From contig JAIPGE010000001.1 in NCBI GenBank assembly GCA_021736285.1, positions 1-24,666 on the forward strand: a stretch of DNA of 24,666 bases. Reading direction: 5' to 3'. Shown here piece by piece: positions 3,795 through 16,369 of this stretch. The position numbers and the translations under genes were made by a program. The first letter of the stretch is position 1. Every line of letters begins with the position of its first letter. This DNA is from Candidatus Izemoplasma sp. GTDB lineage: Bacteria > Bacillota_I > Bacilli_A > Izemoplasmatales > Izemoplasmataceae. The notes below the pieces were generated by a model. The model searched no databases. It worked only from the letters and a program-made list of their open reading frames with translations, and was not told the origin of the DNA.

Positions 3795-5480
3795 TTAAAC
3801 TTCATAATCCATTTCTTCGTTATAGTAGTACTCTTGCATGACATTGATGACAATATTATTGCAGTGATCCCCAATTCGTTCAATATTAGATAAAATATCG
3901 ACATAAAGACCATCTTGTGTCTCTGATGATTGTTTATTATTGATGCGCATAATATGACGTTTACGATTTTTAATTACCAAGCGATCAATAACATCTTCGC
4001 GATCCATCACTTTCTTCGCTGTGATTTTATCTTGTGTATCAAAAGCTTCAATGGTTAAATGAAGCGTTTCTTGAACAACATCATAAAGTGTTCTTAATTC
4101 ATTCAACGCATCTACACTGAGTACAAGTTTATTTTCATATCGATCCTCAAAGAATTGTAATAAATTGGTACAGTGATCCCCAATCCGTTCAAAATCACGT
4201 ATTGTATCAACAAATGCGGCTTGGTCTGATGAAGACTCTCGATCAAGATCATTCTGCGCTATTTTGACAAGATAATCGTGTGCTTTCTTATCAATGGTAT
4301 CGAGCATCTCTTCAATCTGCATCCCATTTTCATAAAGTTTTTTATCTTCTTTAAACGAATATTCAATTGTTGACTCAAACATTTGTTCAGTTAGTTTACC
4401 CATATTTAAAACAACAACTTTTGCACTTTCTAAGGCAAGAGAAGGTGCATCTAAAATCAATTCATCACTTAGTGCGTCAACATCTACTTCAACTAAACCA
4501 TCTTCACCTCGAATAATGAATGTTGCCAACCCGACAAGTTGTTTGATGAACCAAAACATAATGAAGGTATTAATGAAATTAAAGCCCATGTGTGCGAAAC
4601 TAATTGTCATTTTACTTGTTTCTCCATGCAACACAGTATCTTCTAGATATTGAATAAAATGAGTATATGGTCGGAGTAACAACATAAAGATAATACTTCC
4701 CACTAAGTTAAACATAACATGAACTGCGGCAGTCCGTTTTGCAGCAATACTACCGCCAAGTGAAGCTAAAACAGCAGTGAAAGTTGTTCCAATATTATCT
4801 CCAAATACAATGGCTATCGCACCAATTAAAGGAATTGCACCTGTTGTATATAACTCTTGTAAAATACCAATTGTGGCACTACTTGATTGGATTGCTGCGG
4901 TTGTTCCAGCACCAACAATAAGCCCTAGTACAGGTGTTTCACCAACTTGATGTAACGCATTTTCAAACCATGGTTGATACGCTAGTTGTTTGAGTGCCCC
5001 TCCCATAACATCTAATCCAAAGAAGAGCATTCCAAAGCCTAGTAAAACACCACCAAATTGCCGATATTTTTTTCGGGTAGAAAAAAATACAAGAAAGCTT
5101 CCTGCTGCCATAATCGGTAATGCGTATGCTTTTATCTTTAATCCAAGTAAAAATGATGTGACGGTTGTTCCTATATTTGCCCCTAGTATAATCCCCACGG
5201 CCTGAGGCAATGTCATTAACCCTGCACGTACAAGTCCAATCGTTAATGCCGTTGTCCCAGAGGAAGATTGAATTAATCCGGTAATAATAATTCCTACAAA
5301 TATACCCTTAATTGGCGTATTGGTCGATTTTTCAATAATCAACTTTAACTTATTTCCCGCAATTGCTTTTAAAGAATCTCCCATTAAGTTTATCCCATAT
5401 AAAAAGATTCCTAATCCGCCTACAATTTCAAAAATAGTTATTTGCCAATTGATTTCTGTTGCAACAGCTAATATTAACAT
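3795..5480 (-). CDS. Na/Pi cotransporter (NptA/YqeW-like) with C-terminal PhoU-like domains
   Basis: Two QSSS signature repeats (LIQSSSGTT, AIQSSSATI), GANIGTT and GDNIGTT, a hydrophobic N-terminal half, and a helical C-terminus with two ERIGDH motifs. RBS AGGAGG. Confidence 0.93.
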   Translation of the reverse strand: MLILAVATEINWQITIFEIVGGLGIFLYGINLMGDSLKAIAGNKLKLIIEKSTNTPIKGIFVGIIITGLIQSSSGTTALTIGLVRAGLMTLPQAVGIILGANIGTTVTSFLLGLKIKAYALPIMAAGSFLVFFSTRKKYRQFGGVLLGFGMLFFGLDVMGGALKQLAYQPWFENALHQVGETPVLGLIVGAGTTAAIQSSSATIGILQELYTTGAIPLIGAIAIVFGDNIGTTFTAVLASLGGSIAAKRTAAVHVMFNLVGSIIFMLLLRPYTHFIQYLEDTVLHGETSKMTISFAHMGFNFINTFIMFWFIKQLVGLATFIIRGEDGLVEVDVDALSDELILDAPSLALESAKVVVLNMGKLTEQMFESTIEYSFKEDKKLYENGMQIEEMLDTIDKKAHDYLVKIAQNDLDRESSSDQAAFVDTIRDFERIGDHCTNLLQFFEDRYENKLVLSVDALNELRTLYDVVQETLHLTIEAFDTQDKITAKKVMDREDVIDRLVIKNRKRHIMRINNKQSSETQDGLYVDILSNIERIGDHCNNIVINVMQEYYYNEEMDYEV

Positions 5481-5599: not shown

Positions 5600-5621
5600 A
5601 AAAAAAAGGACTACAGTCCTT
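5600..5621 (-). terminator. Intrinsic terminator overlapping the stop codon of the second DHH gene
   Basis: Stem aaggac(5606-5611)/gtcctt(5616-5621), 4-nt loop, A-run 5600-5607. Confidence 0.7.
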
Positions 5622-6576
5622 CTTTATACGATTTGGCTAATTGATCTGCATCTTTTAGTATTAATTCTGTTCGCTCCCATGTGCCAAGGCTGGCACCACT
5701 TGCCATTGCGTGGCCCCCACCATCATATTTACCAGCAAGTTCATTAATTGCTGGGCCTTTTGAACGTAAACGACATCGAACAATGCCTTCTTCATACTCA
5801 GCAAATAATGCCCAAATTGGACAATCTTTAAATTTACCCAATTCATTAACAAGACTCGTTGCTTCTTCAAGGTTAACATCAAACTCTTCTAAATACTTTG
5901 GTAATATCTTGAAATAAACGACTCCGTTTTCTGTCTTTTCATAATTTTGTAAGACAAAGCCTTTAAAGCGGGTAAAGTTTTCCGTTCTTGTATCTAAGTA
6001 ATCATATACTTCACCGGCATCTAATCCTGAATCATAAAGCATTGCAACATTTCGAAATGTATCGCCATTAACACCACTATACTTAAAGCGGCCTGTATCA
6101 GTGAGAATACCAAAGAATAACGCATCTGCAGCTGCTTTTGTTAAGATATAGTCTTCTTTAAACATATTATATAAATCAAGCACAATCAACGCTGCTGCTG
6201 GGCGTGATGTATCGATATATTCGACATCACCATAGGTTTCTACCTTAATGTGATGATCAATCTTGATTGTTTTTTCACATAACTTAAATCGTTCATCTCC
6301 CATACGGTCGATATTCGCTGTGTCAACCAATATTCCAAGTGCATCAGCAAAGATATTATCCTCTTCTAAAACATCTGGTACACCGATAAATGAGGTGAAC
6401 TCACTTGATTCTCCAACAACATAGACTGTTTTATCTTGAAAGCTTGCTTCAATCATATGTTTTAGTCCAAATGCTGTTCCCATCGCATCACCATCAGGGC
6501 GTTGATGCGGAAATATAATAATTGTTTTGTATGATTTAATTAATTCATGTATTGCTTGTAATTTTTTACTATCCAT
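5611..6576 (-). CDS. nrnA: DHH/DHHA1 phosphoesterase, NrnA-like (nanoRNase/pAp phosphatase), paralog 2
   Basis: HQRPDGDA, ILVD, IDHH, LTDTGRF, VRCRLRSKG, GGGHAMASG. Confidence 0.88.
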   Translation of the reverse strand: MDSKKLQAIHELIKSYKTIIIFPHQRPDGDAMGTAFGLKHMIEASFQDKTVYVVGESSEFTSFIGVPDVLEEDNIFADALGILVDTANIDRMGDERFKLCEKTIKIDHHIKVETYGDVEYIDTSRPAAALIVLDLYNMFKEDYILTKAAADALFFGILTDTGRFKYSGVNGDTFRNVAMLYDSGLDAGEVYDYLDTRTENFTRFKGFVLQNYEKTENGVVYFKILPKYLEEFDVNLEEATSLVNELGKFKDCPIWALFAEYEEGIVRCRLRSKGPAINELAGKYDGGGHAMASGASLGTWERTELILKDADQLAKSYKEGL

Positions 6577-7510
6577 TATTTTGGCTCCTAACTATGTGCT
6601 CGTGTAAATCATCTAATAGTTGATTGGTTTCTTCAAAAGAGTTAATCACACACCCGCAAGCGAGTGCATGGCCTCCGCCACCATATTGTTTTGCAATATC
6701 AACAATTGGCGTTTCTTTACTGCGTAACTCAACCATAATGCCTACTTCATCTTCTGTAAAATTAACCCAGGCGTCAATCCCTTTAATTCCACTCATTTGA
6801 TTGACCATGGCACGTGAGACTGTAAAGGTTGAGACATTATATTCTTTTGTAACATCCATTGAGTTTTCCATATACGCAATATGGTCTCTATAAATCTTGA
6901 AGTTATTAATAAAGTATCCTTTTAATTTTTTAAAATTCAACTCTTCTGTGTATAAGTTTTCATAAATCCATTGTAATGCGCCACCCCGTCTTAATAAAAA
7001 GGCTGATATTTCTAATGTATCTGCTTGAGTATTTGAATATAAAAAGCGGCCACTGTCTGTAATAATACCCGCAAGGAACGCTGTTGCTGCTTGGGCATTA
7101 AATTGTAAATTGTAATCCGTTAGGATATCAACAATCATTTCGGCACAGGCAATCTTGCTTGAATCAATGTGGGCAACACACTCAATATTTGGTGTATTTA
7201 AATGATGATCTAGGATCAATACTTCATCAGCTAATTCATAGCGATGATCACTAATCATTTGTTTGACACAGACATCAACAATAATAGCAAGTGCACCATC
7301 ATAAACGTCATCTTCAATATGATCCATATCCCCTAAAAATGAAAACACGTTTTCATCGCCAACAGCGTAGACTTGTTTTTCTGGATAATTGAGTTCGATC
7401 ACATGTTTTAAACCGAGTTGGCTTCCATAGGCATCCCCATCTGGATTGTTGTGTCGATGAATGATGATTGTGCTGTATTGTTCGATTAATTTTATAACAG
7501 TTTCTTTCAT
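6569..7510 (-). CDS. nrnA: DHH/DHHA1 phosphoesterase, NrnA-like, paralog 1
   Basis: HRHNNPDGDAYGSQ, IIVD, LDHH, ITDSGRF, ELRSK, GGGHALACG. Start moved to ATG 7510 (GGGGTG at 7517-7522 is 6 nt upstream). The stop overlaps the next start by 8 nt. Confidence 0.88.
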   Translation of the reverse strand: MKETVIKLIEQYSTIIIHRHNNPDGDAYGSQLGLKHVIELNYPEKQVYAVGDENVFSFLGDMDHIEDDVYDGALAIIVDVCVKQMISDHRYELADEVLILDHHLNTPNIECVAHIDSSKIACAEMIVDILTDYNLQFNAQAATAFLAGIITDSGRFLYSNTQADTLEISAFLLRRGGALQWIYENLYTEELNFKKLKGYFINNFKIYRDHIAYMENSMDVTKEYNVSTFTVSRAMVNQMSGIKGIDAWVNFTEDEVGIMVELRSKETPIVDIAKQYGGGGHALACGCVINSFEETNQLLDDLHEHIVRSQNNG

Positions 7511-7527
7511 CCTTTTCACCCCTAATA

Positions 7528-7591: not shown

Positions 7592-8728
7592 TTAATTCCA
7601 ACGATTATAATTGGGTTGATCGTTTTCATAATCCCAATAATAATCTAATAAATTACTCCATTGTCCCCGTTCGTTTAGAATCGCATCATCTTCCGCAATA
7701 TGCATCCATGCATTATATGTATAATCCCCATAACTTAAGTCTTCTCCTGCGCCAAATTCATATTTTACTTGAGCAAGACCTTGTCTAACGACCATATAAT
7801 TCAATAAGAAATAATCGGTTTCTCCTGGTAACTGTATCCAAATCCAACCAAGTAATCTACCATGGGTGTCTAATAGCCCATCACCAGGGTCGGTTTGGAT
7901 GGCAATCTTTTCAGCTTCTTCTAACAAGGAACAGGTATACACACTTGCTGGTTTTCCCCATTCTTCTTCACCACCGGGATAGGTTTCTTCGGTATCCATA
8001 TTCAAAAACCGAACACTTTTGGCACTACTTTGAATAGCATCATAGATATCATCTGGATAATGAAAGCGAGCAGTATCTCCATCTGTACAAGAAAGTAATG
8101 TCACTTCAAAAGCCCCACCACGGGGATTTAAGTATGACTGTTCAAATAAACTTTCATCTAATAACGGACCATTATAATCTAACTCTAATGGACTAAAATA
8201 GGTATCTGTGGTTTCACGAACATACGCGTATACTTTGATCCCCACTGCACTGATTGGATCATATAAATCTCCAGCTTGTTGTTCGCCAACATATCCAATA
8301 ACCTCGTCATCTAAAGTTTCGTCACTTGTCTCAACATATTCAAAGTAAAATGGTGCGCCTAACTCATTAAAAAGTGGGGCAATATCAGCAAAAGTCAGTC
8401 CCGTTAAGACTGGCAGTTCAATCCAATCATCTGTGTATACTGGATAAATAACAACCGTAACACTTTCTTCAGTATTCACCATATCACCGATTGAATGGTC
8501 TTGGTACATCATGAAGATTCCTTCAAGATCATCTACTTGATCTTCTGCATACACTATCTCATATGTTACATCAAGTCGTTCTAACTCTGTACGAACTTGA
8601 ATTTCTGTCTTATCATTTAAATTAGGCAATAACACCCAATCGTTACTTTGGTTATCCGGTACGTCTTCACACCCGTATAATCCAATTATTCCTAGTACGA
8701 TTAATACCACTACTATAACCTTTTTCAT
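7592..8728 (-). CDS. Lipoprotein: two PASTA-like domains plus a thermonuclease (SNase) domain
   Basis: Lipobox LYGC (C20). Residues ~31-96 and ~102-168 both follow the PASTA pattern (LPxLxG...L..LG..Y....G.......V...VY). SNase catalytic set is intact: DGDT (D216/D218), R240, DTEE (D245/E248), DTHGR (R291). Confidence 0.85.
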   Translation of the reverse strand: MKKVIVVVLIVLGIIGLYGCEDVPDNQSNDWVLLPNLNDKTEIQVRTELERLDVTYEIVYAEDQVDDLEGIFMMYQDHSIGDMVNTEESVTVVIYPVYTDDWIELPVLTGLTFADIAPLFNELGAPFYFEYVETSDETLDDEVIGYVGEQQAGDLYDPISAVGIKVYAYVRETTDTYFSPLELDYNGPLLDESLFEQSYLNPRGGAFEVTLLSCTDGDTARFHYPDDIYDAIQSSAKSVRFLNMDTEETYPGGEEEWGKPASVYTCSLLEEAEKIAIQTDPGDGLLDTHGRLLGWIWIQLPGETDYFLLNYMVVRQGLAQVKYEFGAGEDLSYGDYTYNAWMHIAEDDAILNERGQWSNLLDYYWDYENDQPNYNRWN

Positions 8729-8744
8729 ACGCTCACCTCGAGTC

Positions 8745-8762
8745 TAACGTATCATTATATCA
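8745..8762 (-). promoter_or_regulatory. Promoter of the PASTA-SNase gene
   Basis: Consensus extended -10 TG-A-TATAAT (hexamer 8754-8759), just downstream of the terminator. RBS GAGGTG. Confidence 0.7.
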
Positions 8763-8782
8763 CAAAAACAGTAAAATCAAAC

Positions 8783-8812
8783 AAAAAAACACCACTTTTG
8801 CAAGTGGTGTTT
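8783..8812 (-). terminator. Intrinsic terminator ending the ABC-nuclease-scaffold operon
   Basis: Perfect 11-bp stem aaacaccactt(8787-8797)/aagtggtgttt(8802-8812), loop ttgc, A-run 8783-8789. Confidence 0.9.
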
Positions 8813-8825
8813 AAGTGTTGAACTA

Positions 8826-11800
8826 TTATTCTGTATGACTTCCGATATAATCAAATGTATCTTGATCATATACATCCCATTCACCTGGTGTCCAAGTTGC
8901 ATTTGGTGCACCAGAATTACGAACTAATGTGTTATTCTGGGTAGATCCAGTTCCAACTGTCCAATATATATCTTCACCAACAACACCAATGACGTCAACA
9001 ACTGTACCATTATTAACTAATTCAAGTGCATCATTACCATTAAAGTAAGTAATATTTGATACGACATCACCTTCATCAGCTATTGCGGCAACTGCACTGC
9101 TATTATAGATAACGTAAACGTCACCTGCAGCAATTGTTACATCAGATAAATCTAATGTTTGACTAGGACTCGTTCCACCATTTGAATATAATAATATTTC
9201 ATATCCAGTTAGTGTCACAGGTACTGTATTTGGATTATAGAGTTCAACAGCTTTGTTACTGCTACCTCCCTCAATATATTCCGAAATATAAATTTCTGAT
9301 AAATTTACATAAGCAGGAACGGTTACAGTTGATGTTACAGTTGATGTTTGATCATCGACAGTAACAGTAGCTGTTAAGGTTACGGTTGCATCCGCTTCAC
9401 CTTCAGCAGGTTGTGTCACTGTACCATCTGTTGCGATAACTGTTTCATCACTGCTTGCCCATGTAATAACAGCATCAAAATCTTCTAATGTTGTAGGTAA
9501 ATCTAAATCGCCTGTTGTAGTTACGCCATCAAAATCTGCGTAGTGTTCAGCAACTACTACATTTTGAGCATCTAAGAACATTGGTGTAACTGCACCAATA
9601 CGAACATTGCCATAATAATCTACTTTGTTTACATTAAATTCGAAACGTAATGTAGTATTAAGTGCAAAAAGTTCAATATATGGTGCCCAATCAGATGCTT
9701 TCATGACGATATCTTTGGTTGCGCTACCTTCAAATACGATGTAACCAAATCCATCATCATACTCGATGACTTTAAGGTTCATAATGAGGCGTTCACTAGC
9801 GTAATCAGATGTGTTATTTGCTAAAGTTAATGCATTAACACTTGGTTGTACATAAACTGTATTACCAGTTGATCTGATTTCAACTAATTCCCAACTTTCT
9901 AGCTGAATTGTATCATCATAAATATCTACCGATCCACGTAATACAACTTCATCACCGATATTTGCTTGTAATACATCGCTCCAATCATATAATGATAAGG
10001 CTGTTCCATCTGGATCTTGAATTTGTGCATTGCCATCTTTATCAAAGCCAGTTACAACCCCAACCACAAATACATCAATTGGATCAGTGTCAGCAGCTAC
10101 TGCTGCTGCATAATCAGCTAATACATCAGTAACTGTATCTGGTTGTTCAACATCATTGGCATCTGCAACAGTAACATCAAATGTTCTTGTTACTGTTTCT
10201 GTACCTACTGTAACTGTGACTGTTAATGTGACAGCTGTTTCACTACCATTAACCATTGAAACGGTCCCATCAGTTGCGATGACTGCTTCATTAGTACTTG
10301 CCCACGCCATTGTAGCAGCAGGATCAGTATTGGCTGTTGGTAAGTCTAAGTTGCCAGTAACATAGTCAGGTAATTCAAGTGCGTCAGCTAATGCTTGTGC
10401 AATACCTGCATCTGGATATGTATAAGTAGACGCATCAGCAGCTACTTCTGTGATATCTGCAGCAACACCATTGAATAAGACAGAACCATCTTGATATGGA
10501 ATAACTGTCAATGTGATAACTTTACCTTCTAATGCAGCAACGTCATCTGCGTTTGAACGATAGTAAACTTTTACTTTATCGCCAGTTGCACCGTAAATTA
10601 CAGCATCATCGTAGTCACCTTCAAGAACAACTTCACCAGTAATTGTAACTGGTTGTCCTTTAAGAACTGCGCCACTGTTAATACCTTCAACAGTACCATC
10701 TATAATTGTAGGATAAGCAGCATCAGCAGTTTCATCAATATCATATTCGATAGGATTTGCTTGTAATAATCCACCATAAGCACCTAAATATCCTAAGATT
10801 GTGATTTCATCGCCAGGTGCTAAATCATCTGATGTTAAATAATCATTAGCTGTATCATCATCATCTGTAAAGCTACTACCTGCATAAACGAATAAGAATC
10901 CATCACCTGAAGTAATGTAAAATCCGTAGTGTGCTTCTTCATAAACATAACCAGTAACTTCGAAGTATGATCCAACTTCCATTGCACTTACTTCTGCAGC
11001 ATTACTGTTAATAGGAACAACAACTTCAAATGTTGCAGTAGCTGTTTCAGTACCTTTTGTTGCGGTACCAGTAAATGTGACAGTTACAGTTTCAGTTGCA
11101 CGTGCAACAAATGTACCATCATCAGCAAAAACATCAGTATTACTACTTGTCCAACCGCTATAAGTTGAACCATTATTACCTGTTGTAGGTAATGTAATTG
11201 TTGCAACTGCGACACTTGGTGCAACAGGGTTTGCATCTTGATCAGCAACAACTGCTTCAGCATCAGTTAATGGTGCATCCATAATGTCATCAGTTGTTCC
11301 ATCAAAGGCAATTAATACGCCGTTGCGACTATGCTCAGTATAGTAAATAATATCAACGGTAACTTTGACACCTACTTTATCATAAAGGGCATCTAAGCTA
11401 TCTGATAAACTACTGTAGTAGAATAATAATTTGTCGTCTCCGTCTTCGATGAATAACGAATCATATCCATCTGCATTTTGACCTTCAACTAATGTTCCTG
11501 AAACACGGTAGATCATACCATGAACAAGTGGATCAGAAGAATCTAATGCCAAGACTTCAGCGACTGTTTTTTCGATTGGTGCTAGATCATTTGTACCATC
11601 ACCAGCAGTAACGATTTCTTCTTCAATAACATCACTGATTTGGAACAATGTATTATATTTAGCATATAATCCTTTAACATATACTTCATCACCAATTGTT
11701 AAATCTAATGAACTTGATGGGTTATACACACCAAATGCATTCGTTCCATCAGTTAAGAAATATCCACCATCGAATAATCCGCTAACAGTTCCTTGGAAAC

Positions 11801-12494
11801 TGACTGTGTTTCCTAATGTTTCAGTTACGATATTAGCAACAACTGTATACGCATTTGTCGCAGCTTCTTCAGCAACAATAATGTCAAATTCTTTAGTTGT
11901 TGAAGCATCGTTTAATGTAATTGTTGCCGTTAAGGTAACTGACGCATTTCCTTCACCAGCGGCAGGTTGTGTCACTGTACCATCATCAGTCACTACTTCA
12001 GTATTTCCAGATGACCAAGTAACCGTCGTTCCATTTGCACCAGTTGCTGGTAACGTGAAACTAGATGAAACGATTCCCGTTACTGGTAAGAGTAACGCTT
12101 GTTTTGCTAACATGACTTTATCTAAATCTGTGACTTCATCAGCAGCAAGTACGGTAACCTCAAATGTTTGTGTTAAGGTTTGATCCATTAACGATACATA
12201 TGCGGTTAATGTTACATCTTTGTCACCTTCATAATTCATTGGACGTGTGACAGTTCCATCATTCGCGATTACGTCTGTATCGCTTGATTCCCATGTGATT
12301 TCAACCTCATTTACTTCTGTGGTTGGTAGCACTAAATCTTCGCTTGTCGTACTCGGAATAGCAAGTGCATCAACAGCTTCGTTGATCATCTCCAATACTT
12401 CTTGTGTGGTTGGTCCATCATCGGTTGGATTACATCCTGCCAATGTGACTGCACCAAGTACAACTAACACAAATGTTAATAATTTTTTAAGCAT
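8826..12494 (-). CDS. Large surface lipoprotein, Ig-Ig-[OB-OB-Ig]x3-lamin-tail domain (LTD); putative non-catalytic nucleic-acid capture protein
   Basis: Lipobox LAGC (C21). Five Ig-like repeats (LxLP...W.SS...V...DGTV...VTLT) at ~43-117, 134-208, 430-493, 705-778, 990-1061. Six OB-like units (V.G.V....G.f..DG....vY....GDEV...G) occur in pairs. C-terminal LTD (IYISEYIEGGSSNKAVELYN...FNGNDALEL...NTLVR...QDTF) at ~1066-1220. Confidence 0.8.
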   Translation of the reverse strand: MLKKLLTFVLVVLGAVTLAGCNPTDDGPTTQEVLEMINEAVDALAIPSTTSEDLVLPTTEVNEVEITWESSDTDVIANDGTVTRPMNYEGDKDVTLTAYVSLMDQTLTQTFEVTVLAADEVTDLDKVMLAKQALLLPVTGIVSSSFTLPATGANGTTVTWSSGNTEVVTDDGTVTQPAAGEGNASVTLTATITLNDASTTKEFDIIVAEEAATNAYTVVANIVTETLGNTVSFQGTVSGLFDGGYFLTDGTNAFGVYNPSSSLDLTIGDEVYVKGLYAKYNTLFQISDVIEEEIVTAGDGTNDLAPIEKTVAEVLALDSSDPLVHGMIYRVSGTLVEGQNADGYDSLFIEDGDDKLLFYYSSLSDSLDALYDKVGVKVTVDIIYYTEHSRNGVLIAFDGTTDDIMDAPLTDAEAVVADQDANPVAPSVAVATITLPTTGNNGSTYSGWTSSNTDVFADDGTFVARATETVTVTFTGTATKGTETATATFEVVVPINSNAAEVSAMEVGSYFEVTGYVYEEAHYGFYITSGDGFLFVYAGSSFTDDDDTANDYLTSDDLAPGDEITILGYLGAYGGLLQANPIEYDIDETADAAYPTIIDGTVEGINSGAVLKGQPVTITGEVVLEGDYDDAVIYGATGDKVKVYYRSNADDVAALEGKVITLTVIPYQDGSVLFNGVAADITEVAADASTYTYPDAGIAQALADALELPDYVTGNLDLPTANTDPAATMAWASTNEAVIATDGTVSMVNGSETAVTLTVTVTVGTETVTRTFDVTVADANDVEQPDTVTDVLADYAAAVAADTDPIDVFVVGVVTGFDKDGNAQIQDPDGTALSLYDWSDVLQANIGDEVVLRGSVDIYDDTIQLESWELVEIRSTGNTVYVQPSVNALTLANNTSDYASERLIMNLKVIEYDDGFGYIVFEGSATKDIVMKASDWAPYIELFALNTTLRFEFNVNKVDYYGNVRIGAVTPMFLDAQNVVVAEHYADFDGVTTTGDLDLPTTLEDFDAVITWASSDETVIATDGTVTQPAEGEADATVTLTATVTVDDQTSTVTSTVTVPAYVNLSEIYISEYIEGGSSNKAVELYNPNTVPVTLTGYEILLYSNGGTSPSQTLDLSDVTIAAGDVYVIYNSSAVAAIADEGDVVSNITYFNGNDALELVNNGTVVDVIGVVGEDIYWTVGTGSTQNNTLVRNSGAPNATWTPGEWDVYDQDTFDYIGSHTE

Positions 12495-12513
12495 TCGTTG
12501 TTTCCTCCTTTTT

Positions 12514-13968
12514 TTAATTAAATTGTATGTCGTTTACATTTGTTAACATAATTTGGTACTCACTCATATAACGGCTTAGTGGTCCAGTAACATCAATCAC
12601 ATCTCCAACCGTAAATAAATCCATTGTAAGGGTGGTTGGTGCAGCTTCAGATACCCGAATGTCTACGCTATTGCCACTACTGTCTTCTGCAGTAATAGTA
12701 AACGCACCATCATTGCCTTCATATAAGCTTGTTATCGTAAGATCTTCGACTTTCAACAAACTCCCGATGTGATTCATGGTAATATCAGGAATTGTTACTA
12801 CATTGGGAGAGACCGTATTGTCACGGCTTAAAACTTGTGAATATGGCTCTCTTGTTTGATAGTTAGATACTTGTACAGCACCAGTTGCTTCATCTGGATA
12901 ATAAGTCACGGTTAGTCCTGATAATAGGACTTCGTTTCCGACAGATAAATCTGGTGCCCATGCGCGATTATAGAGGTACACGCCATAATCCCCTTGTTGG
13001 ATGAATGCTGCCCCACCTAATGTTCGCGAGACAATTCCTTGAATGGCGACTTTTGTACCGTAATACGTTTCCGCATTTGTCACCAATTCTTCAATGGTTA
13101 TTTGAACACCCTCTAAACTATAGTCATAATCAGGGTCGGTTTCACCCCAAACACGTCTGCCACTATATTGAACTTCCAAATTCACATCAAAGATCAATTG
13201 GCCATATAAGGTATCCATACTACCGCTTGCTTTTGAGTAAGCTAACTCTACCAATTCTAAATTAAGTAATCTACCATCATACCATACCCAAGCCAAATAC
13301 CGGGTATCATAACTATCCAACCGTCCTGCGGCTGGATCAGCTTGTAAGACGATCGTTTGCGCATTGGTGAGTTTGTCACAGGTAAAATCACTGGCTGCTT
13401 TTCCCCATGGTTCAAATTTGGCAGTTGATTCAGGGGTATTAATCCCTAAGAACCGGACTGAGAAATTTGTGCCATTTTCAGAGAAGAATGCGGTATCACC
13501 ATCAACACATCTCACCAACTCAACTTCACCAACACCATCAGGTAAAAAATCATATTGTTCGTAGGCAAAATCTAATGCGAGTGTGTCTGTTTCATCCGTA
13601 TTTAGTTCAATATGCTCAGGAACTTCCTCAGCAACAACTGTAAATTCATACGCTTTGGTAATCACTGTGTCCCCTTTTGTAAGGGTTAAGATTAAGGTAA
13701 CTCTCTGATTCCCATTTACATAACTAGGTATTGTAACATTCCCATCTTCATCAAGATAGTTGGGTTTATCTGAATACCACGATGCACTGACACCTTCCTC
13801 ATCAATTGTAGGTAACGTTAGATCTTCAGTTAATTCTGTTTGTTCAAATGTAATTGAAGACCGAATATCATACAATACCTCACTGTCAGATTTAGGTGTA
13901 TTACCACAGGCTGTAAGCGTAATAATCAGTATTATGAGTAAACTTCCCAAAGCAAATTTTTTAAACAT
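12514..13968 (-). CDS. Lipoprotein nuclease: Ig-like + thermonuclease (SNase) + two OB-fold domains
   Basis: Lipobox LTAC (C21). Ig repeat at ~39-114. SNase at ~148-276 with DGDT, VRFLGINTPE, EPWGKAAS, DSYDTRYLAWV, LNLELVE. OB-like units at ~305-370 and ~402-480. Confidence 0.88.
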   Translation of the reverse strand: MFKKFALGSLLIILIITLTACGNTPKSDSEVLYDIRSSITFEQTELTEDLTLPTIDEEGVSASWYSDKPNYLDEDGNVTIPSYVNGNQRVTLILTLTKGDTVITKAYEFTVVAEEVPEHIELNTDETDTLALDFAYEQYDFLPDGVGEVELVRCVDGDTAFFSENGTNFSVRFLGINTPESTAKFEPWGKAASDFTCDKLTNAQTIVLQADPAAGRLDSYDTRYLAWVWYDGRLLNLELVELAYSKASGSMDTLYGQLIFDVNLEVQYSGRRVWGETDPDYDYSLEGVQITIEELVTNAETYYGTKVAIQGIVSRTLGGAAFIQQGDYGVYLYNRAWAPDLSVGNEVLLSGLTVTYYPDEATGAVQVSNYQTREPYSQVLSRDNTVSPNVVTIPDITMNHIGSLLKVEDLTITSLYEGNDGAFTITAEDSSGNSVDIRVSEAAPTTLTMDLFTVGDVIDVTGPLSRYMSEYQIMLTNVNDIQFN

Positions 13969-13990
13969 AAAATCTCACACTTTCTTTAAT

Positions 13991-15433
13991 TTAAGCTCCT
14001 AATTGACGAACCATGTCATCAATTACTTCTTGTGCACTATAGCCTCCGAACAGTGCTTCCATCGCAACACCTGCTTGGAAACGCGCATCACTTGATGTAA
14101 CAGCCCCAGCAAATGCTGGATCATATTCGAAGTATTCGTATTGTGCGTATGCAGCTTGAGCTGCTAATGAAGAATAATATAAACTATCTGTTGGACTATC
14201 AATTTCTAAGAATGCTTGATAATCTGCAGATTGAACACCGCTATGACGAACAGGTAAATATCCTGTTTCCATTGCCCATGCGGCTGTATTTTCAGCTTTT
14301 GTTAAATATGTAATTAACAACCATGATGCCAAACGTTCAGCATCTGTTGTATTACTCATTATCGCAACATTCGGTCCTTGTTGAACAGCTGATTTAGAAT
14401 CTAAATCATATTGAGGCACAGGGACAACGCCAACTTCAAATTCTCCACCTGGAGGAATATTGTAGTTAATCCCTGCAGTTGAACCAACACTCATACAAAC
14501 GTCTCCCGCGATAAAGTTATTTGAACCATAACTTTCATTCCATGCAAGTGGTAAACTGAATGTATTGTCTGCAAAACGTGTTTTGACATAATTTAACATA
14601 TCAATGGTGTTTTGATTATCAACTAAGATATCACCATCTGAGTTGGTATATCCACCACTCCATTGTCGTACACTATTAATGAAAAAGTTACTCGATGAAT
14701 CGAAGTTAATTAAATATTGACAACTATCTGCATCGTTTGAACCAACTGTGTAATTTGGATCAACCATGGTATCAGCCCATATGTCTAAGTCAGCCCACGT
14801 GATAACGCGATCAGTTGGAACAGTAATTCCTGCTGCATCGAACTTATCCTTATTATAAACCATCATTTCAGTAGATTTAGAATATGGGAATGAATACATA
14901 TATCCCCCTGCATATTGTTTGTTTTCTGCAAGATAAGATTCGATGAAATCATCTAGGTCAACACCATAATTTTCATCATAGATAAAATCATCTAGTGGAA
15001 TAACAGCATTTCCTTTGAGATACCCAGCAACATGATCTGGATATCCAACAACCATTGTTGGTGTGTTTCCTGCTGTAATGGCATTTAATGTGTTGTTACG
15101 GATTGTTGTATAATCTCCTTGAGAAACAGCTTCAACGGTTACATTTGGATAATCTGCTTCAAATTCATCAATAAACTCTTGAAGCAACGCCCCTTTACTT
15201 TCCCCATAAACGTGCCAGAATGTGATTGTAACTGGCTCGTTTGGTAAAGCATCAAGTACATTAATGATGCCTGGTGCACCATCAATGGCACCACCACCAT
15301 TATTATCCAAACAACTAACGTGATTTGGATATTCGTCACAATCTACTTCATAAGGATCTTCTTCAAACTGTACACATCCGGTTAAACCTAAGGCAAAGAC
15401 ACCCATGAGTAGTAACGCTAATACTTTTTTCAT
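13991..15433 (-). CDS. ABC transporter solute-binding lipoprotein (CUT1/family 1, UgpB-like)
   Basis: Lipobox LTGC (C20). VTITFWH, PNVTVEAVSQG, FPYSKSTEMMVYNKD, QGPNVAI, WAMETGYLPVR are family-1 SBP patterns. RBS AGGAGG. Confidence 0.9.
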   Translation of the reverse strand: MKKVLALLLMGVFALGLTGCVQFEEDPYEVDCDEYPNHVSCLDNNGGGAIDGAPGIINVLDALPNEPVTITFWHVYGESKGALLQEFIDEFEADYPNVTVEAVSQGDYTTIRNNTLNAITAGNTPTMVVGYPDHVAGYLKGNAVIPLDDFIYDENYGVDLDDFIESYLAENKQYAGGYMYSFPYSKSTEMMVYNKDKFDAAGITVPTDRVITWADLDIWADTMVDPNYTVGSNDADSCQYLINFDSSSNFFINSVRQWSGGYTNSDGDILVDNQNTIDMLNYVKTRFADNTFSLPLAWNESYGSNNFIAGDVCMSVGSTAGINYNIPPGGEFEVGVVPVPQYDLDSKSAVQQGPNVAIMSNTTDAERLASWLLITYLTKAENTAAWAMETGYLPVRHSGVQSADYQAFLEIDSPTDSLYYSSLAAQAAYAQYEYFEYDPAFAGAVTSSDARFQAGVAMEALFGGYSAQEVIDDMVRQLGA

Positions 15434-15472
15434 TATTCTCCTCCTATTAATATAGTTTTTCTTTTATATGTT

Positions 15473-16357
15473 TTAACCCTTGATTCCACTACGTGATACT
15501 CCGCGCATAATGTATTTTTTAAGAAACATAAATACAATTAGTAACGGTAACGTAACAATTAATGCTGCAGCCATCTGCTGACTGTAGTTTACCATACCAA
15601 AGAAATCTTGATATGCTTCACGAAGACCATTGGTCACAAGTGGATATTCTGTCGCAACCAATTTAGGCCAGATATAAGCACTCCAAGTTCCCATTGCATT
15701 TAAGATAACGATTGTAATGATTGTTGGTGAGGCAATTGGAACCATAATTTTCCACAAATATTTCCAGTCGCTTGTTCCATCGACTTTCGCCGCGAGATAT
15801 AACTCATCAGGAATTTGTTTGAATGCTTGGCGTAAGAAGAACAAGTAAAATACACTTGTCATAAACGGCATTGTTAACGCTAAAAATGCTTCTGTTTGGG
15901 TTTGCCCTAAGGGGCTATACCATCCTAAGTTAGATACTGTAATGTAGTTTGTGATAACAAACATTTCACCAGGAATCATCATTGTTGAGATTAGCGCAAG
16001 GAATAGAAAATCTCTTCCTTTAAAGTTCAATCTTGCAAATGCGAATGCGGCAAAGATTGTGGTAAAGATTGTTCCCGTTGTTGAAATCGCGGCAACAGCT
16101 ACTGTTCTTAACATATATTGATAGTATGGTGCTGCATTCCAAGCAGATGCATAGTTCTCTAAGAAACGGATATCTTTTAACCCAATAATTAAACTTGGTG
16201 GCACTTCAGTCCGTACTTGTTGAAAACTTTTTAGTGATGTTAAGACCATCCAGTAAAATGGAATTAACACGAAGATAGCAAATCCAACTAAAAAGGTGTA
16301 GACCAACACTTTGAAAAGAATGGTACGAATACGTGTTTCTCTTATTGTATTTTGCAT
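15473..16357 (-). CDS. CUT1 ABC permease (UgpE/MalG-like)
   Basis: PFYWMVLTSLK, AAFAFARLNFKG, EAA loop FKQIPDELYLAAKVDGTS, MAAALIVTLP. Confidence 0.92.
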   Translation of the reverse strand: MQNTIRETRIRTILFKVLVYTFLVGFAIFVLIPFYWMVLTSLKSFQQVRTEVPPSLIIGLKDIRFLENYASAWNAAPYYQYMLRTVAVAAISTTGTIFTTIFAAFAFARLNFKGRDFLFLALISTMMIPGEMFVITNYITVSNLGWYSPLGQTQTEAFLALTMPFMTSVFYLFFLRQAFKQIPDELYLAAKVDGTSDWKYLWKIMVPIASPTIITIVILNAMGTWSAYIWPKLVATEYPLVTNGLREAYQDFFGMVNYSQQMAAALIVTLPLLIVFMFLKKYIMRGVSRSGIKG

Positions 16358-16369
16358 GTCATAACCCTC

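What the first reader, a model, noticed from the sequence alone, without database searches (positions are those of the whole stretch)
8826..12494. 1222-aa modular lipoprotein Ig-Ig-[OB-OB-Ig]x3-LTD: nuclease accessory modules with no catalytic domain
Seen: a regular triad of two OB-like units plus one Ig repeat occurs three times and is capped by an LTD. I find no SNase DGDT/R/E set, no EEP (NxxN/SDH), no Endonuclease I/HNH and no metallophosphoesterase motif. It is the last gene of the ABC-nuclease operon and has a strong AGGAGG RBS. Known: LTD and these OB units are accessory domains of secreted nucleases of the ExeM/YhcR/NucH type. Inference: a stand-alone 'DNA antenna' that holds long extracellular nucleic acid at the membrane for the neighbouring SNases and the SBP, limiting product loss. 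This would be comparable to SusD/E-like glycan capture but for DNA. It is the strongest candidate for an undescribed component.
Basis: partly seen in the sequence, partly recalled or inferred. Interest (0 to 1): 0.85.

Follow-up and report, generated by a model that had tools for sequence, protein, structure and literature searches.

The report
Enzyme-free surface DNA-catching lipoprotein
This is a large membrane-anchored surface protein of a wall-less, DNA-eating bacterium, built only from nucleic-acid-binding-type folds and spacers, that most likely holds outside DNA next to the cell's own nucleases and importer; the idea was published for its ortholog in 2021, so it is a well-supported but not new candidate.

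Summary
The gene at 8826-12494 (-) encodes a 1222-aa lipoprotein, Ig-Ig-[tandem OB-Ig]x3-LTD. It has no catalytic domain and no unassigned stretch that could hide one. A high-confidence model (pLDDT 96.6) shows each 200-aa spacer is a rigid OB pair, most like the N-terminal OB pair of B. subtilis YhcR. The same module sits on the adjacent SNase lipoprotein, where Pfam calls it DUF5689.

In 25 of 26 related genome loci the multi-OB gene lies beside SNase, ABC-importer or NrnA-like genes, and it never carries an SNase itself. Natural fusions join the importer's binding protein to the OB/Ig array; one of them also carries the LTD.

The "DNA antenna" reading is therefore plausible (about 0.6) but untested. 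It is also not new. Wasmund et al. 2021 (PMC8289736) described this locus and proposed the same DNA-holding role for the ortholog. I found that ortholog to be colinear at 37% identity, and their "endonuclease I domain" is not reproduced. A 2025 preprint makes the Sus-like analogy for DUF5689 protein DdbD. This scan has also reported the same kind of protein several times on other genomes.

One caveat is that the protein is extremely acidic (net charge -161). Verdict: a new member of a known, still unproven kind.

The parts
12504..12509 (-). AGGAGG ribosome-binding site, 9 nt before the ATG at 12494
   Evidence: Read directly from the sequence.
12432..12494 (-). Signal peptide and lipobox (residues 1-21, ...TLAGC; Cys21 is the lipidated residue)
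   Evidence: Translation. Cys21 is kept in 90% or more of 23 homologs.
12141..12407 (-). Ig-like repeat 1 (aBig_2, residues ~30-118)
   Evidence: Pfam PF20578, 5 stretches, E 2.9e-83. Repeat borders come from self-comparison.
11865..12140 (-). Ig-like repeat 2 (aBig_2, residues ~119-210)
11241..11861 (-). Tandem OB module 1 (residues 212-418; OB-a 212-305, OB-b 306-418)
   Evidence: AF2 model with pLDDT 96.6. Matches YhcR with TM 0.71 and single OB folds with Z up to 12.5.
11007..11240 (-). Ig-like repeat 3 (aBig_2, residues ~419-496)
10419..11006 (-). Tandem OB module 2 (residues 497-692)
   Evidence: hhalign against module 1 gives 99.8% probability, E 5e-29. The A2 profile matches it at E 9.6e-47.
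10164..10418 (-). Ig-like repeat 4 (aBig_2, residues ~693-777)
9570..10163 (-). Tandem OB module 3 (residues 778-975; the b unit is the most divergent)
   Evidence: hhalign against module 1 gives 98.8% probability over the full length. The A2 profile matches it at E 2.7e-36.
9321..9569 (-). Ig-like repeat 5 (aBig_2, residues ~976-1058)
8829..9320 (-). C-terminal lamin-tail domain (residues 1059-1222), at the end farthest from the membrane
   Evidence: Pfam LTD, E 6.5e-17 on the isolated segment. Residues 1059-1220 align to positions 18-174 of the 884-position ExeM model, which is the non-catalytic N-terminal part only.
8787..8812 (-). Terminator-like hairpin (11-bp stem plus T-run) 13 nt after the stop codon
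12514..13968 (-). Upstream partner: SNase lipoprotein (aBig_2, then SNase, then one copy of the same tandem OB module, which Pfam calls DUF5689)
   Evidence: Pfam. The A2 profile matches residues ~291-463 at E 1.6e-14. DGDT and RFLGINTPE motifs are present.
13991..18348 (-). ABC importer: ATPase, two permeases and a lipoprotein substrate-binding protein
   Evidence: Pfam and NCBIfam.
7592..8728 (-). Downstream SNase lipoprotein with PASTA-like N-terminal part; it has its own extended -10 promoter
   Evidence: Pfam. DGDT, RFLNMDTEE and HGRLLG motifs. Promoter read.
5611..7519 (-). Two NrnA-like DHH/DHHA1 genes, presumably cytoplasmic oligonucleotide trimming enzymes
   Evidence: Pfam.
3795..5480 (-). 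Na/Pi cotransporter with PhoU domains
   Evidence: Pfam.

Best explanation
This is a non-catalytic surface protein anchored by a lipid on Cys21. It projects from the membrane of a wall-less Izemoplasmatales-type bacterium as a string of 13 beta-domains: two Ig spacers, three [tandem OB + Ig] cassettes and a distal lamin-tail domain.

Inferred mechanism: the six OB folds, possibly with the LTD, each bind nucleic acid weakly and without sequence preference. Together they hold long extracellular DNA or RNA at the surface by avidity. There the two co-encoded SNase lipoproteins cut it, the ABC importer takes up the fragments, and the two NrnA-like enzymes trim them.

Shown here: the architecture, the OB fold, the absence of an enzyme domain, the shared module with the adjacent SNase, the conserved synteny, and the natural fusions to the importer's binding protein. 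Inferred: nucleic-acid binding itself, multivalency, and hand-off to the nucleases and importer.
For: 1. Fold. The tandem OB model has pLDDT 96.6. Its best whole-module match is the OB pair of the nuclease YhcR, TM 0.71. Other matches are tandem-OB DNA binders such as HIN-200/AIM2/p202, RPA and Teb1. Single-OB Z reaches 12.5. Profile hits to STN1, RPA32 and S1 OB folds are weak, E 0.007-0.07.
2. Same module on a real nuclease. In this genome the module occurs only in the target (three copies) and on the adjacent SNase lipoprotein, E 1.6e-14, where Pfam calls it DUF5689.
3. Published function of related modules. In ExeM the YhcR-like double-OB region is essential for nuclease activity, and loss of the LTD lowers in vitro activity. 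The DUF5689 protein DdbD is the proposed DNA-binding partner of a DNA-utilisation transporter.
4. Synteny. Five loci read gene by gene are colinear, including Acholeplasmataceae at 27-28% identity. Of 26 genome loci with two or more modules, 25 are flanked by SNase, ABC or DHH genes. The multi-OB ORF never carries an SNase in cis, and in most loci the gene immediately upstream is an SNase with one module.
5. Natural fusions. P0079 is SBP + aBig_2/OB array + LTD. P0150 and P0091 are SBP + aBig_2 + OB module. P0146 is LTD-OB-SNase-5'-nucleotidase-DUF5689-LPXTG.
6. No catalytic domain or motif.
7. In the cultured relative X. coldseepsis, genes of this locus are induced by DNA.
Against: No binding data exist for this protein or any ortholog.

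The mature protein is extremely acidic: 33 K+R against 194 D+E, net -161. Every OB unit is net negative, and OB2a has no K or R at all. The acidity runs through the family, with a median of -9.45 per 100 aa over the 132 top representatives. This argues against simple electrostatic DNA binding. It is softened because the SNase domains next door are also net negative, at -12 and -20.

The tandem-OB fold also occurs on histidine kinases, GGDEF proteins and on CBM20- and peptidase-containing proteins. Two of three distant multi-OB proteins that I checked lie outside nuclease loci. The fold alone therefore does not fix the ligand.

The conserved synteny is largely inherited within one lineage.
Confidence: 0.6

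Rival explanations
1. It is a scaffold or stalk. The OB/Ig array binds no nucleic acid. Instead it organises or spaces the SNase lipoproteins and the binding protein on the membrane through protein-protein contacts, or it forms a polyanionic surface coat on the wall-less cell.
For: The protein is extremely acidic, and OB2a has no basic residue. It is built of Ig spacers and repeats whose copy number varies from 2 to 5 in orthologs and from 1 to 9 in the wider set. The partner SNase carries a like module that could pair with it.
Against: Related double-OB regions are needed for nuclease function in ExeM and are genetically linked to DNA uptake as DUF5689/DdbD. A spacer role would not explain six well-conserved OB barrels. 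I did not test any protein-protein contact.
Confidence: 0.15
2. It retains products rather than capturing polymer. The OB units bind short oligonucleotides or nucleotides released by the SNases and pass them to the ABC binding protein, limiting loss by diffusion.
For: Natural fusions place the array on the same chain as the importer's binding protein. The gene follows the SBP and SNase genes directly. PF01336-type OBs bind short single-stranded stretches, which I state from general knowledge of the fold.
Against: The tandem arrangement most resembles dsDNA-binding HIN and DUF5689 modules. A protein with six OB folds that may reach tens of nm from the membrane (inferred from 13 domains, not measured) seems built for polymers.
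Confidence: 0.1
3. It binds something other than nucleic acid, such as a polysaccharide, a mineral or particle surface, or divalent cations, and sits in the locus for another reason.
For: The same fold occurs with CBM20, beta-helix, peptidase and sensor domains. Two distant multi-OB proteins lack nuclease neighbours. The polyanionic surface would chelate Ca2+ or Mg2+.
Against: 25 of 26 related loci are nuclease, importer or NrnA loci. The array is fused to SNase/5'-nucleotidase proteins and to the locus's binding protein.
Confidence: 0.1
4. It is a cryptic nuclease. This follows the published annotation of the ortholog as carrying a C-terminal 'endonuclease I' nuclease domain.
For: Wasmund et al. 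list such a domain from a CDD BLASTP search. JGI names some homologs 'predicted extracellular nuclease'.
Against: Pfam finds only aBig_2, LTD and weak OB hits on the very protein they described, at E<=0.1, and likewise on the window's protein. The ExeM model matches only its LTD part, scoring 107 bits against a cutoff of 1300. No metal- or phosphate-binding motif is present, and the protein has only 5 His. No residues are left unassigned.
Confidence: 0.04

Closest known systems
'Large protein' (peg.646, scaffold_255) of the Ca. Izemoplasma acidinucleici 'DNA-degradation locus' (Wasmund et al. 2021, Nat Microbiol, PMC8289736, Fig. 6 and supplement)
   Same: It is the ortholog: colinear over residues 188-1208, 37% identity, E 1e-144. 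The locus order is the same: ABC importer, SNase-OB, large protein, SNase-PASTA, two DHH, Na/Pi. The authors proposed the same role, holding polymeric DNA near the cell.
   Different: The published gene call of 1049 aa lacks the N-terminus, which lies in a separate 157-aa ORF at L012:10477-10950. Their 'endonuclease I domain' is not reproduced. The window's protein comes from a different lineage found in a lake-water metagenome; its full-length best match is 50% identical.
ExeM / Xds extracellular nucleases (Shewanella, Vibrio; NCBIfam NF033680; PMC6085458)
   Same: Both have an LTD and a YhcR-like double OB region. In ExeM the OB region is essential and the LTD contributes to in vitro activity.
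   Different: The window's protein has no EEP catalytic domain and no GlyGly-CTERM anchor. Its LTD is C-terminal and distal rather than N-terminal. It has three OB pairs instead of one. It scores 107.5 bits against a cutoff of 1300.
B. subtilis YhcR (P54602), a wall-anchored Ca2+-dependent nuclease
   Same: It is the best structural match to the tandem OB module as a rigid pair: TM 0.71, rmsd 3.9 A over residues 1-198.
   Different: YhcR carries SNase and 5'-nucleotidase domains and an LPXTG anchor. None of these is present here.
DdbD (DUF5689) of the Bacteroides thetaiotaomicron ddbABCDEF DNA-utilisation locus, and its Riemerella natural-transformation homolog (bioRxiv 10.1101/2025.03.18.642099)
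   Same: Both are non-catalytic, surface-exposed tandem-OB proteins with HIN/p202-like structure inside a nuclease-plus-transporter locus, and both are proposed to be the DNA-binding arm in a Sus-like scheme. DUF5689 is what Pfam calls the sister module on the adjacent SNase. A DUF5689 protein is among the AFDB structural matches.
   Different: [quoted passage not shown] Here there are three modules with Ig spacers and an LTD on a lipoprotein of a wall-less cell, working with an ABC importer. The target's own modules do not reach Pfam DUF5689.
SusD/E/F-type surface glycan-binding proteins of polysaccharide-utilisation loci
   Same: This is a functional analogy only: a non-catalytic lipoprotein that would hold polymer for co-encoded surface hydrolases and an importer.
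   Different: The folds, the substrate and the cell envelope are unrelated. No homology was sought or found.

Membership tests
Izemoplasmatales DNA-degradation-locus large OB/LTD protein (Wasmund 2021) | Colinear sequence homology to the described protein peg.646 | tested here: met
   37% identity over residues 188-1208, E 1e-144.
Izemoplasmatales DNA-degradation-locus large OB/LTD protein (Wasmund 2021) | Position between the SNase genes, downstream of the ABC importer and upstream of the two DHH genes and the phosphate transporter | tested here: met
   Window genes. The same order is seen in L001, L003, L004, L005 and L012. 25 of 26 loci have such neighbours.
Izemoplasmatales DNA-degradation-locus large OB/LTD protein (Wasmund 2021) | OB-fold (YhcR-like) regions plus a lamin-tail domain | tested here: met
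Izemoplasmatales DNA-degradation-locus large OB/LTD protein (Wasmund 2021) | C-terminal endonuclease I / nuclease domain, as annotated in the paper | tested here: not met
   No such Pfam or NCBIfam hit in P0001 or in peg.646 itself. The feature appears to be an annotation artefact rather than a family trait.
ExeM-type extracellular nuclease (NF033680) | EEP catalytic domain and a whole-protein score at or above the cutoff | tested here: not met
   107.5 bits against 1300. Only model positions 18-174 are matched.
ExeM-type extracellular nuclease (NF033680) | LTD plus double OB region | tested here: met
YhcR-type nuclease | SNase and 5'-nucleotidase/metallophosphoesterase domains, LPXTG anchor | tested here: not met
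   None is found at meaningful E-values, and the motifs are absent.
YhcR-type nuclease | N-terminal tandem OB pair | tested here: met
   TM 0.71 to P54602.
DUF5689 (PF18942) / DdbD | Match to the Pfam model above the gathering score | tested here: not met
   The target's modules give no DUF5689 hit at E<=10. The sister module on the adjacent SNase does, at 31.6 bits against 28.6. The relation is therefore at fold and profile level only.
Bacterial lipoprotein | Signal peptide with a lipobox L-[AS]-[GA]-C | tested here: met
   MLKKLLTFVLVVLGAVTLAGC. The Cys is conserved. Lipidation itself cannot be tested here.
Nucleic-acid-binding protein (functional class) | Demonstrated binding of DNA or RNA | not testable with these tools
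   Only fold, fusion and context evidence is available. The net charge of -161 is a caution.

The most novel reading that the evidence does not exclude
The polyanionic OB/Ig array captures nucleic acid through bridging Ca2+ or Mg2+ ions rather than basic side chains. This would concentrate both the substrate and the Ca2+ cofactor for the neighbouring SNases. The array would then pass the fragments physically to the ABC binding protein, as the natural SBP-array fusions suggest. That would make it the first demonstrated 'surface nucleic-acid-binding protein' of a nucleic-acid utilisation locus in wall-less or monoderm bacteria.
Probability: 0.15. Interest if true: 0.6.

Novelty: new member of a known kind. 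Interest (0 to 1): 0.35.

Why it matters
Extracellular DNA is a major phosphorus, nitrogen and carbon pool in sediments and stratified waters, and Izemoplasmatales are specialised DNA feeders. If this protein really tethers DNA, nucleic-acid foraging would follow the same capture-cut-import logic as polysaccharide utilisation. It would also supply an experimentally tractable, enzyme-free binding module.

Related modules are very widespread: about 12,400 representative proteins match the profile. Most of the best-matching ones that I scanned also lack a recognised enzyme domain: 41 were sampled, none had SNase or EEP, and two had PLDc_2.

The practical gains here are modest. The published annotation is corrected: there is no nuclease domain, and the published gene call is truncated at the N-terminus. 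The module is defined structurally. The SBP-array fusions and the striking acidity should guide how binding is assayed.

Tried and rejected
- Self-BLAST of the whole protein and of 110-aa pieces found only the Ig repeats. The OB modules needed profile-profile comparison.
- Pfam on the isolated spacers gave nothing, apart from a sub-threshold DUF5666 hit on module 2.
- A single-sequence AF2 run of residues 205-500 failed, with pLDDT 37. This used one of the two fold jobs, so modules 2 and 3, the Ig repeats and the LTD were not modelled.
- I considered extreme acidity as a refutation of DNA binding and down-weighted it, because the intact SNase domains next door are also net negative.
- The paper's 'endonuclease I domain' was checked and not reproduced.
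- 'EddB', induced about 20-fold by DNA in X. coldseepsis, may be this protein's ortholog. I could not verify which gene carries that name.
- No RNA runs hold the sequence. Only lake-water metagenome DNA runs do, so transcription and the operon boundary were not checked with reads.
- Complex prediction was not used. It gives no verdict for protein-DNA jobs, and I make no specific protein-protein claim.
Full report
**What is there**

The window is AT-rich (about 36% GC), and nearly all of its genes lie on the minus strand. The ORF at 8826-12494 (-) encodes 1222 residues. It begins MLKKLLTFVLVVLGAVTLAGC, a signal peptide with a lipobox. AGGAGG lies 9 nt before the ATG, and only 19 nt separate the gene from the one upstream.

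Pfam finds five aBig_2 Ig-like repeats (E 2.9e-83) and a lamin-tail domain at residues 1066-1171. NCBIfam matches only residues 1059-1220, and only to positions 18-174 of the 884-position ExeM model. That is ExeM's LTD end, not its EEP catalytic half, and the score is 107.5 bits against a cutoff of 1300.

**The three spacers**

Three spacers of about 200 aa lie between the Ig repeats: 212-418, 497-692 and 778-975. They have no significant Pfam match. Profiles cut from a 23-homolog alignment show that they are homologous to one another at 99.8%, 98.8% and 97.9% probability. Each consists of an a unit and a b unit that match in register.

I pooled the three modules of the 23 homologs into a 69-row alignment. 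The resulting AlphaFold2 model of 212-418 has pLDDT 96.6 and pTM 0.90 and shows two five-stranded barrels.

- Single-unit matches are classical nucleic-acid OB folds: AsnRS/AspRS anticodon-binding domains, RPA, Ten1/Stn1, MCM and YgiW, with Z up to 12.5 at about 2 A rmsd.
- As a rigid pair, the best match is the N-terminal OB pair of B. subtilis YhcR (TM 0.71).
- Next come tandem-OB DNA binders: HIN-200/AIM2/p202, RPA and Teb1.

**No enzyme**

Every residue is assigned to a domain. No catalytic family appears in Pfam at E<=1 or in NCBIfam. None of the SNase, EEP, HNH, PLD, DHH or metallophosphoesterase signature motifs is present. The protein has only five histidines and one cysteine, the lipobox Cys.

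**Context**

Upstream lie an ABC ATPase, two permeases, a lipoprotein binding protein, and an SNase lipoprotein with the layout aBig_2-SNase-DUF5689. Downstream lie a second SNase lipoprotein with PASTA-like repeats, two NrnA-like DHH/DHHA1 genes, and a Na/Pi transporter. Both SNases keep the DGDT, R...[DN]T.E and R motifs.

An 11-bp-stem hairpin with a T-run follows the target's stop codon by 13 nt, and a TGnTATAAT element follows that. 'Last gene of the transcription unit' is therefore reasonable, although the functional locus continues.

In the 1.06-Mb draft genome, the tandem-OB profile hits only two proteins significantly: the target, three times, and the C-terminal part of the adjacent SNase at E 1.6e-14. 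This is the region Pfam calls DUF5689. The target looks like an amplified, enzyme-free version of its neighbour's accessory parts.

**Relatives**

Full-length homologs at 37-56% identity are annotated, where named at all, as Ca. Izemoplasma lamin-tail-domain proteins.

Five loci read gene by gene show the same gene order. They include Acholeplasmataceae at 27-28% identity. In a scan of one genome per species, 26 loci carry an ORF with two or more modules.

- 25 of the 26 have SNase, ABC and/or DHH genes in the flanks.
- The multi-OB ORF never carries an SNase.
- In most loci the gene just upstream is an SNase with one module.
- Module number varies from 2 to 5, and the LTD is not always detected.

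Against 1.84 billion representative proteins, the module profile finds 12,388 proteins at E<=1e-3 and 400 at E<=1e-30. Of 41 sampled from the top 150, 36 have aBig_2, 12 have LTD, 8 have PF01336, 2 have a PLD-type domain, and none has SNase or EEP.

I checked three of them with Pfam:

- P0079: SBP, then the aBig_2/OB array, then LTD.
- P0150 and P0091: SBP, then aBig_2, then OB modules.

Two others are full YhcR-like nucleases. These fusions tie the array functionally to both the importer and the nucleases.

Not all distant relatives are in such loci. Of three checked, one was and two were not. AFDB fold clusters also show the module on sensor kinases, GGDEF proteins, and CBM20- and peptidase-containing proteins.

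**Literature**

Wasmund et al. [quoted passage not shown] In their supplement they describe a 'large protein' with OB (YhcR-like), LTD and 'endonuclease I' domains. They hypothesise that it holds polymeric DNA near the cell so that the secreted nucleases can digest it and the transporters can take up the products with little loss by diffusion.

I fetched that scaffold as L012. Their peg.646 is colinear with the window's protein at 37% identity, E 1e-144. Its N-terminus lies in a separate 157-aa ORF. Pfam finds no nuclease domain in it.

Other relevant papers:

- In ExeM the double-OB region is essential for nuclease activity, and LTD loss lowers in vitro activity.
- In cultured X. coldseepsis, genes of this locus are induced by DNA, and one called 'EddB' rises about 20-fold. 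Its identity with this protein is unverified.
There the DUF5689 protein DdbD, structurally like p202 HIN, is proposed as the DNA-binding partner of a TonB-dependent transporter in a PUL-like DNA-utilisation locus. Its Riemerella homolog is needed for natural transformation.

**Caveat**

The mature protein has 33 K+R against 194 D+E, a net charge of -161. Every OB unit is net negative. The whole family is acidic as well. This is unusual for a DNA binder. However, the neighbouring SNase catalytic domains are also net negative, and the sample is a lake-water metagenome. Acidity may therefore be a trait of this group's surface proteins, with binding relying on aromatic stacking or on bridging Mg2+/Ca2+.

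**Verdict**

This scan has also reported the same kind of protein on several other genomes. It is a new member of a known, still unproven kind, of moderate interest.

Noticed in passing
L012:10477-14090 (Ca. Izemoplasma acidinucleici scaffold_255): The published 1049-aa 'large protein' is an N-terminally truncated gene call. A 157-aa ORF carrying aBig_2 ends at 10950 and overlaps the start at 10941, so there is a frameshift or an assembly error. Pfam finds no endonuclease I domain in the protein.
   Followed up: partly
P0079, P0150, P0091, P0137 (metagenomic representatives): These are natural fusions of the locus-type ABC substrate-binding protein with tandem-OB modules. Pfam confirmed SBP + aBig_2 for P0079, P0150 and P0091, preceded by Flg_new repeats. 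Only P0079 also has the LTD. P0137 was seen by phmmer only.
   Followed up: partly
window 12514-13968 (-): The upstream SNase lipoprotein carries one copy of the same tandem-OB module (residues ~291-463), which Pfam labels DUF5689. Its Ca2+-site motif reads INTPE (N in place of the usual D).
   Followed up: partly
window 7592-18348 (-), extracellular proteins: All four predicted lipoproteins of the locus are very acidic: net -47 to -55 for the SBP and the two SNases, and -161 for the target. The permeases are basic and the ATPase is neutral.
   Followed up: partly
window 7592-8728 (-): An SNase lipoprotein with PASTA-like repeats occurs in a bacterium presumed to lack a cell wall. In the Acholeplasmataceae loci (L003) the equivalent gene also carries an LTD.
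   Followed up: no
window 8754-8762 (-): A TGnTATAAT extended -10 lies just after the terminator hairpin, which suggests a separate promoter for the downstream SNase-PASTA gene.
   Followed up: no
L016:8995-10999: The closest genome match is labelled 'Bacillales bacterium KhS_metabat.25', at 81% identity on the best segment. The contig ends inside the gene. The label is probably a misclassified Izemoplasmatales-type MAG.
   Followed up: no
P0055 / L086:558-7417: A 1352-aa protein made almost only of OB units (12 matched stretches, no aBig_2) sits directly after an SBP gene and an SNase gene. This is the same locus logic with a different build.
   Followed up: partly
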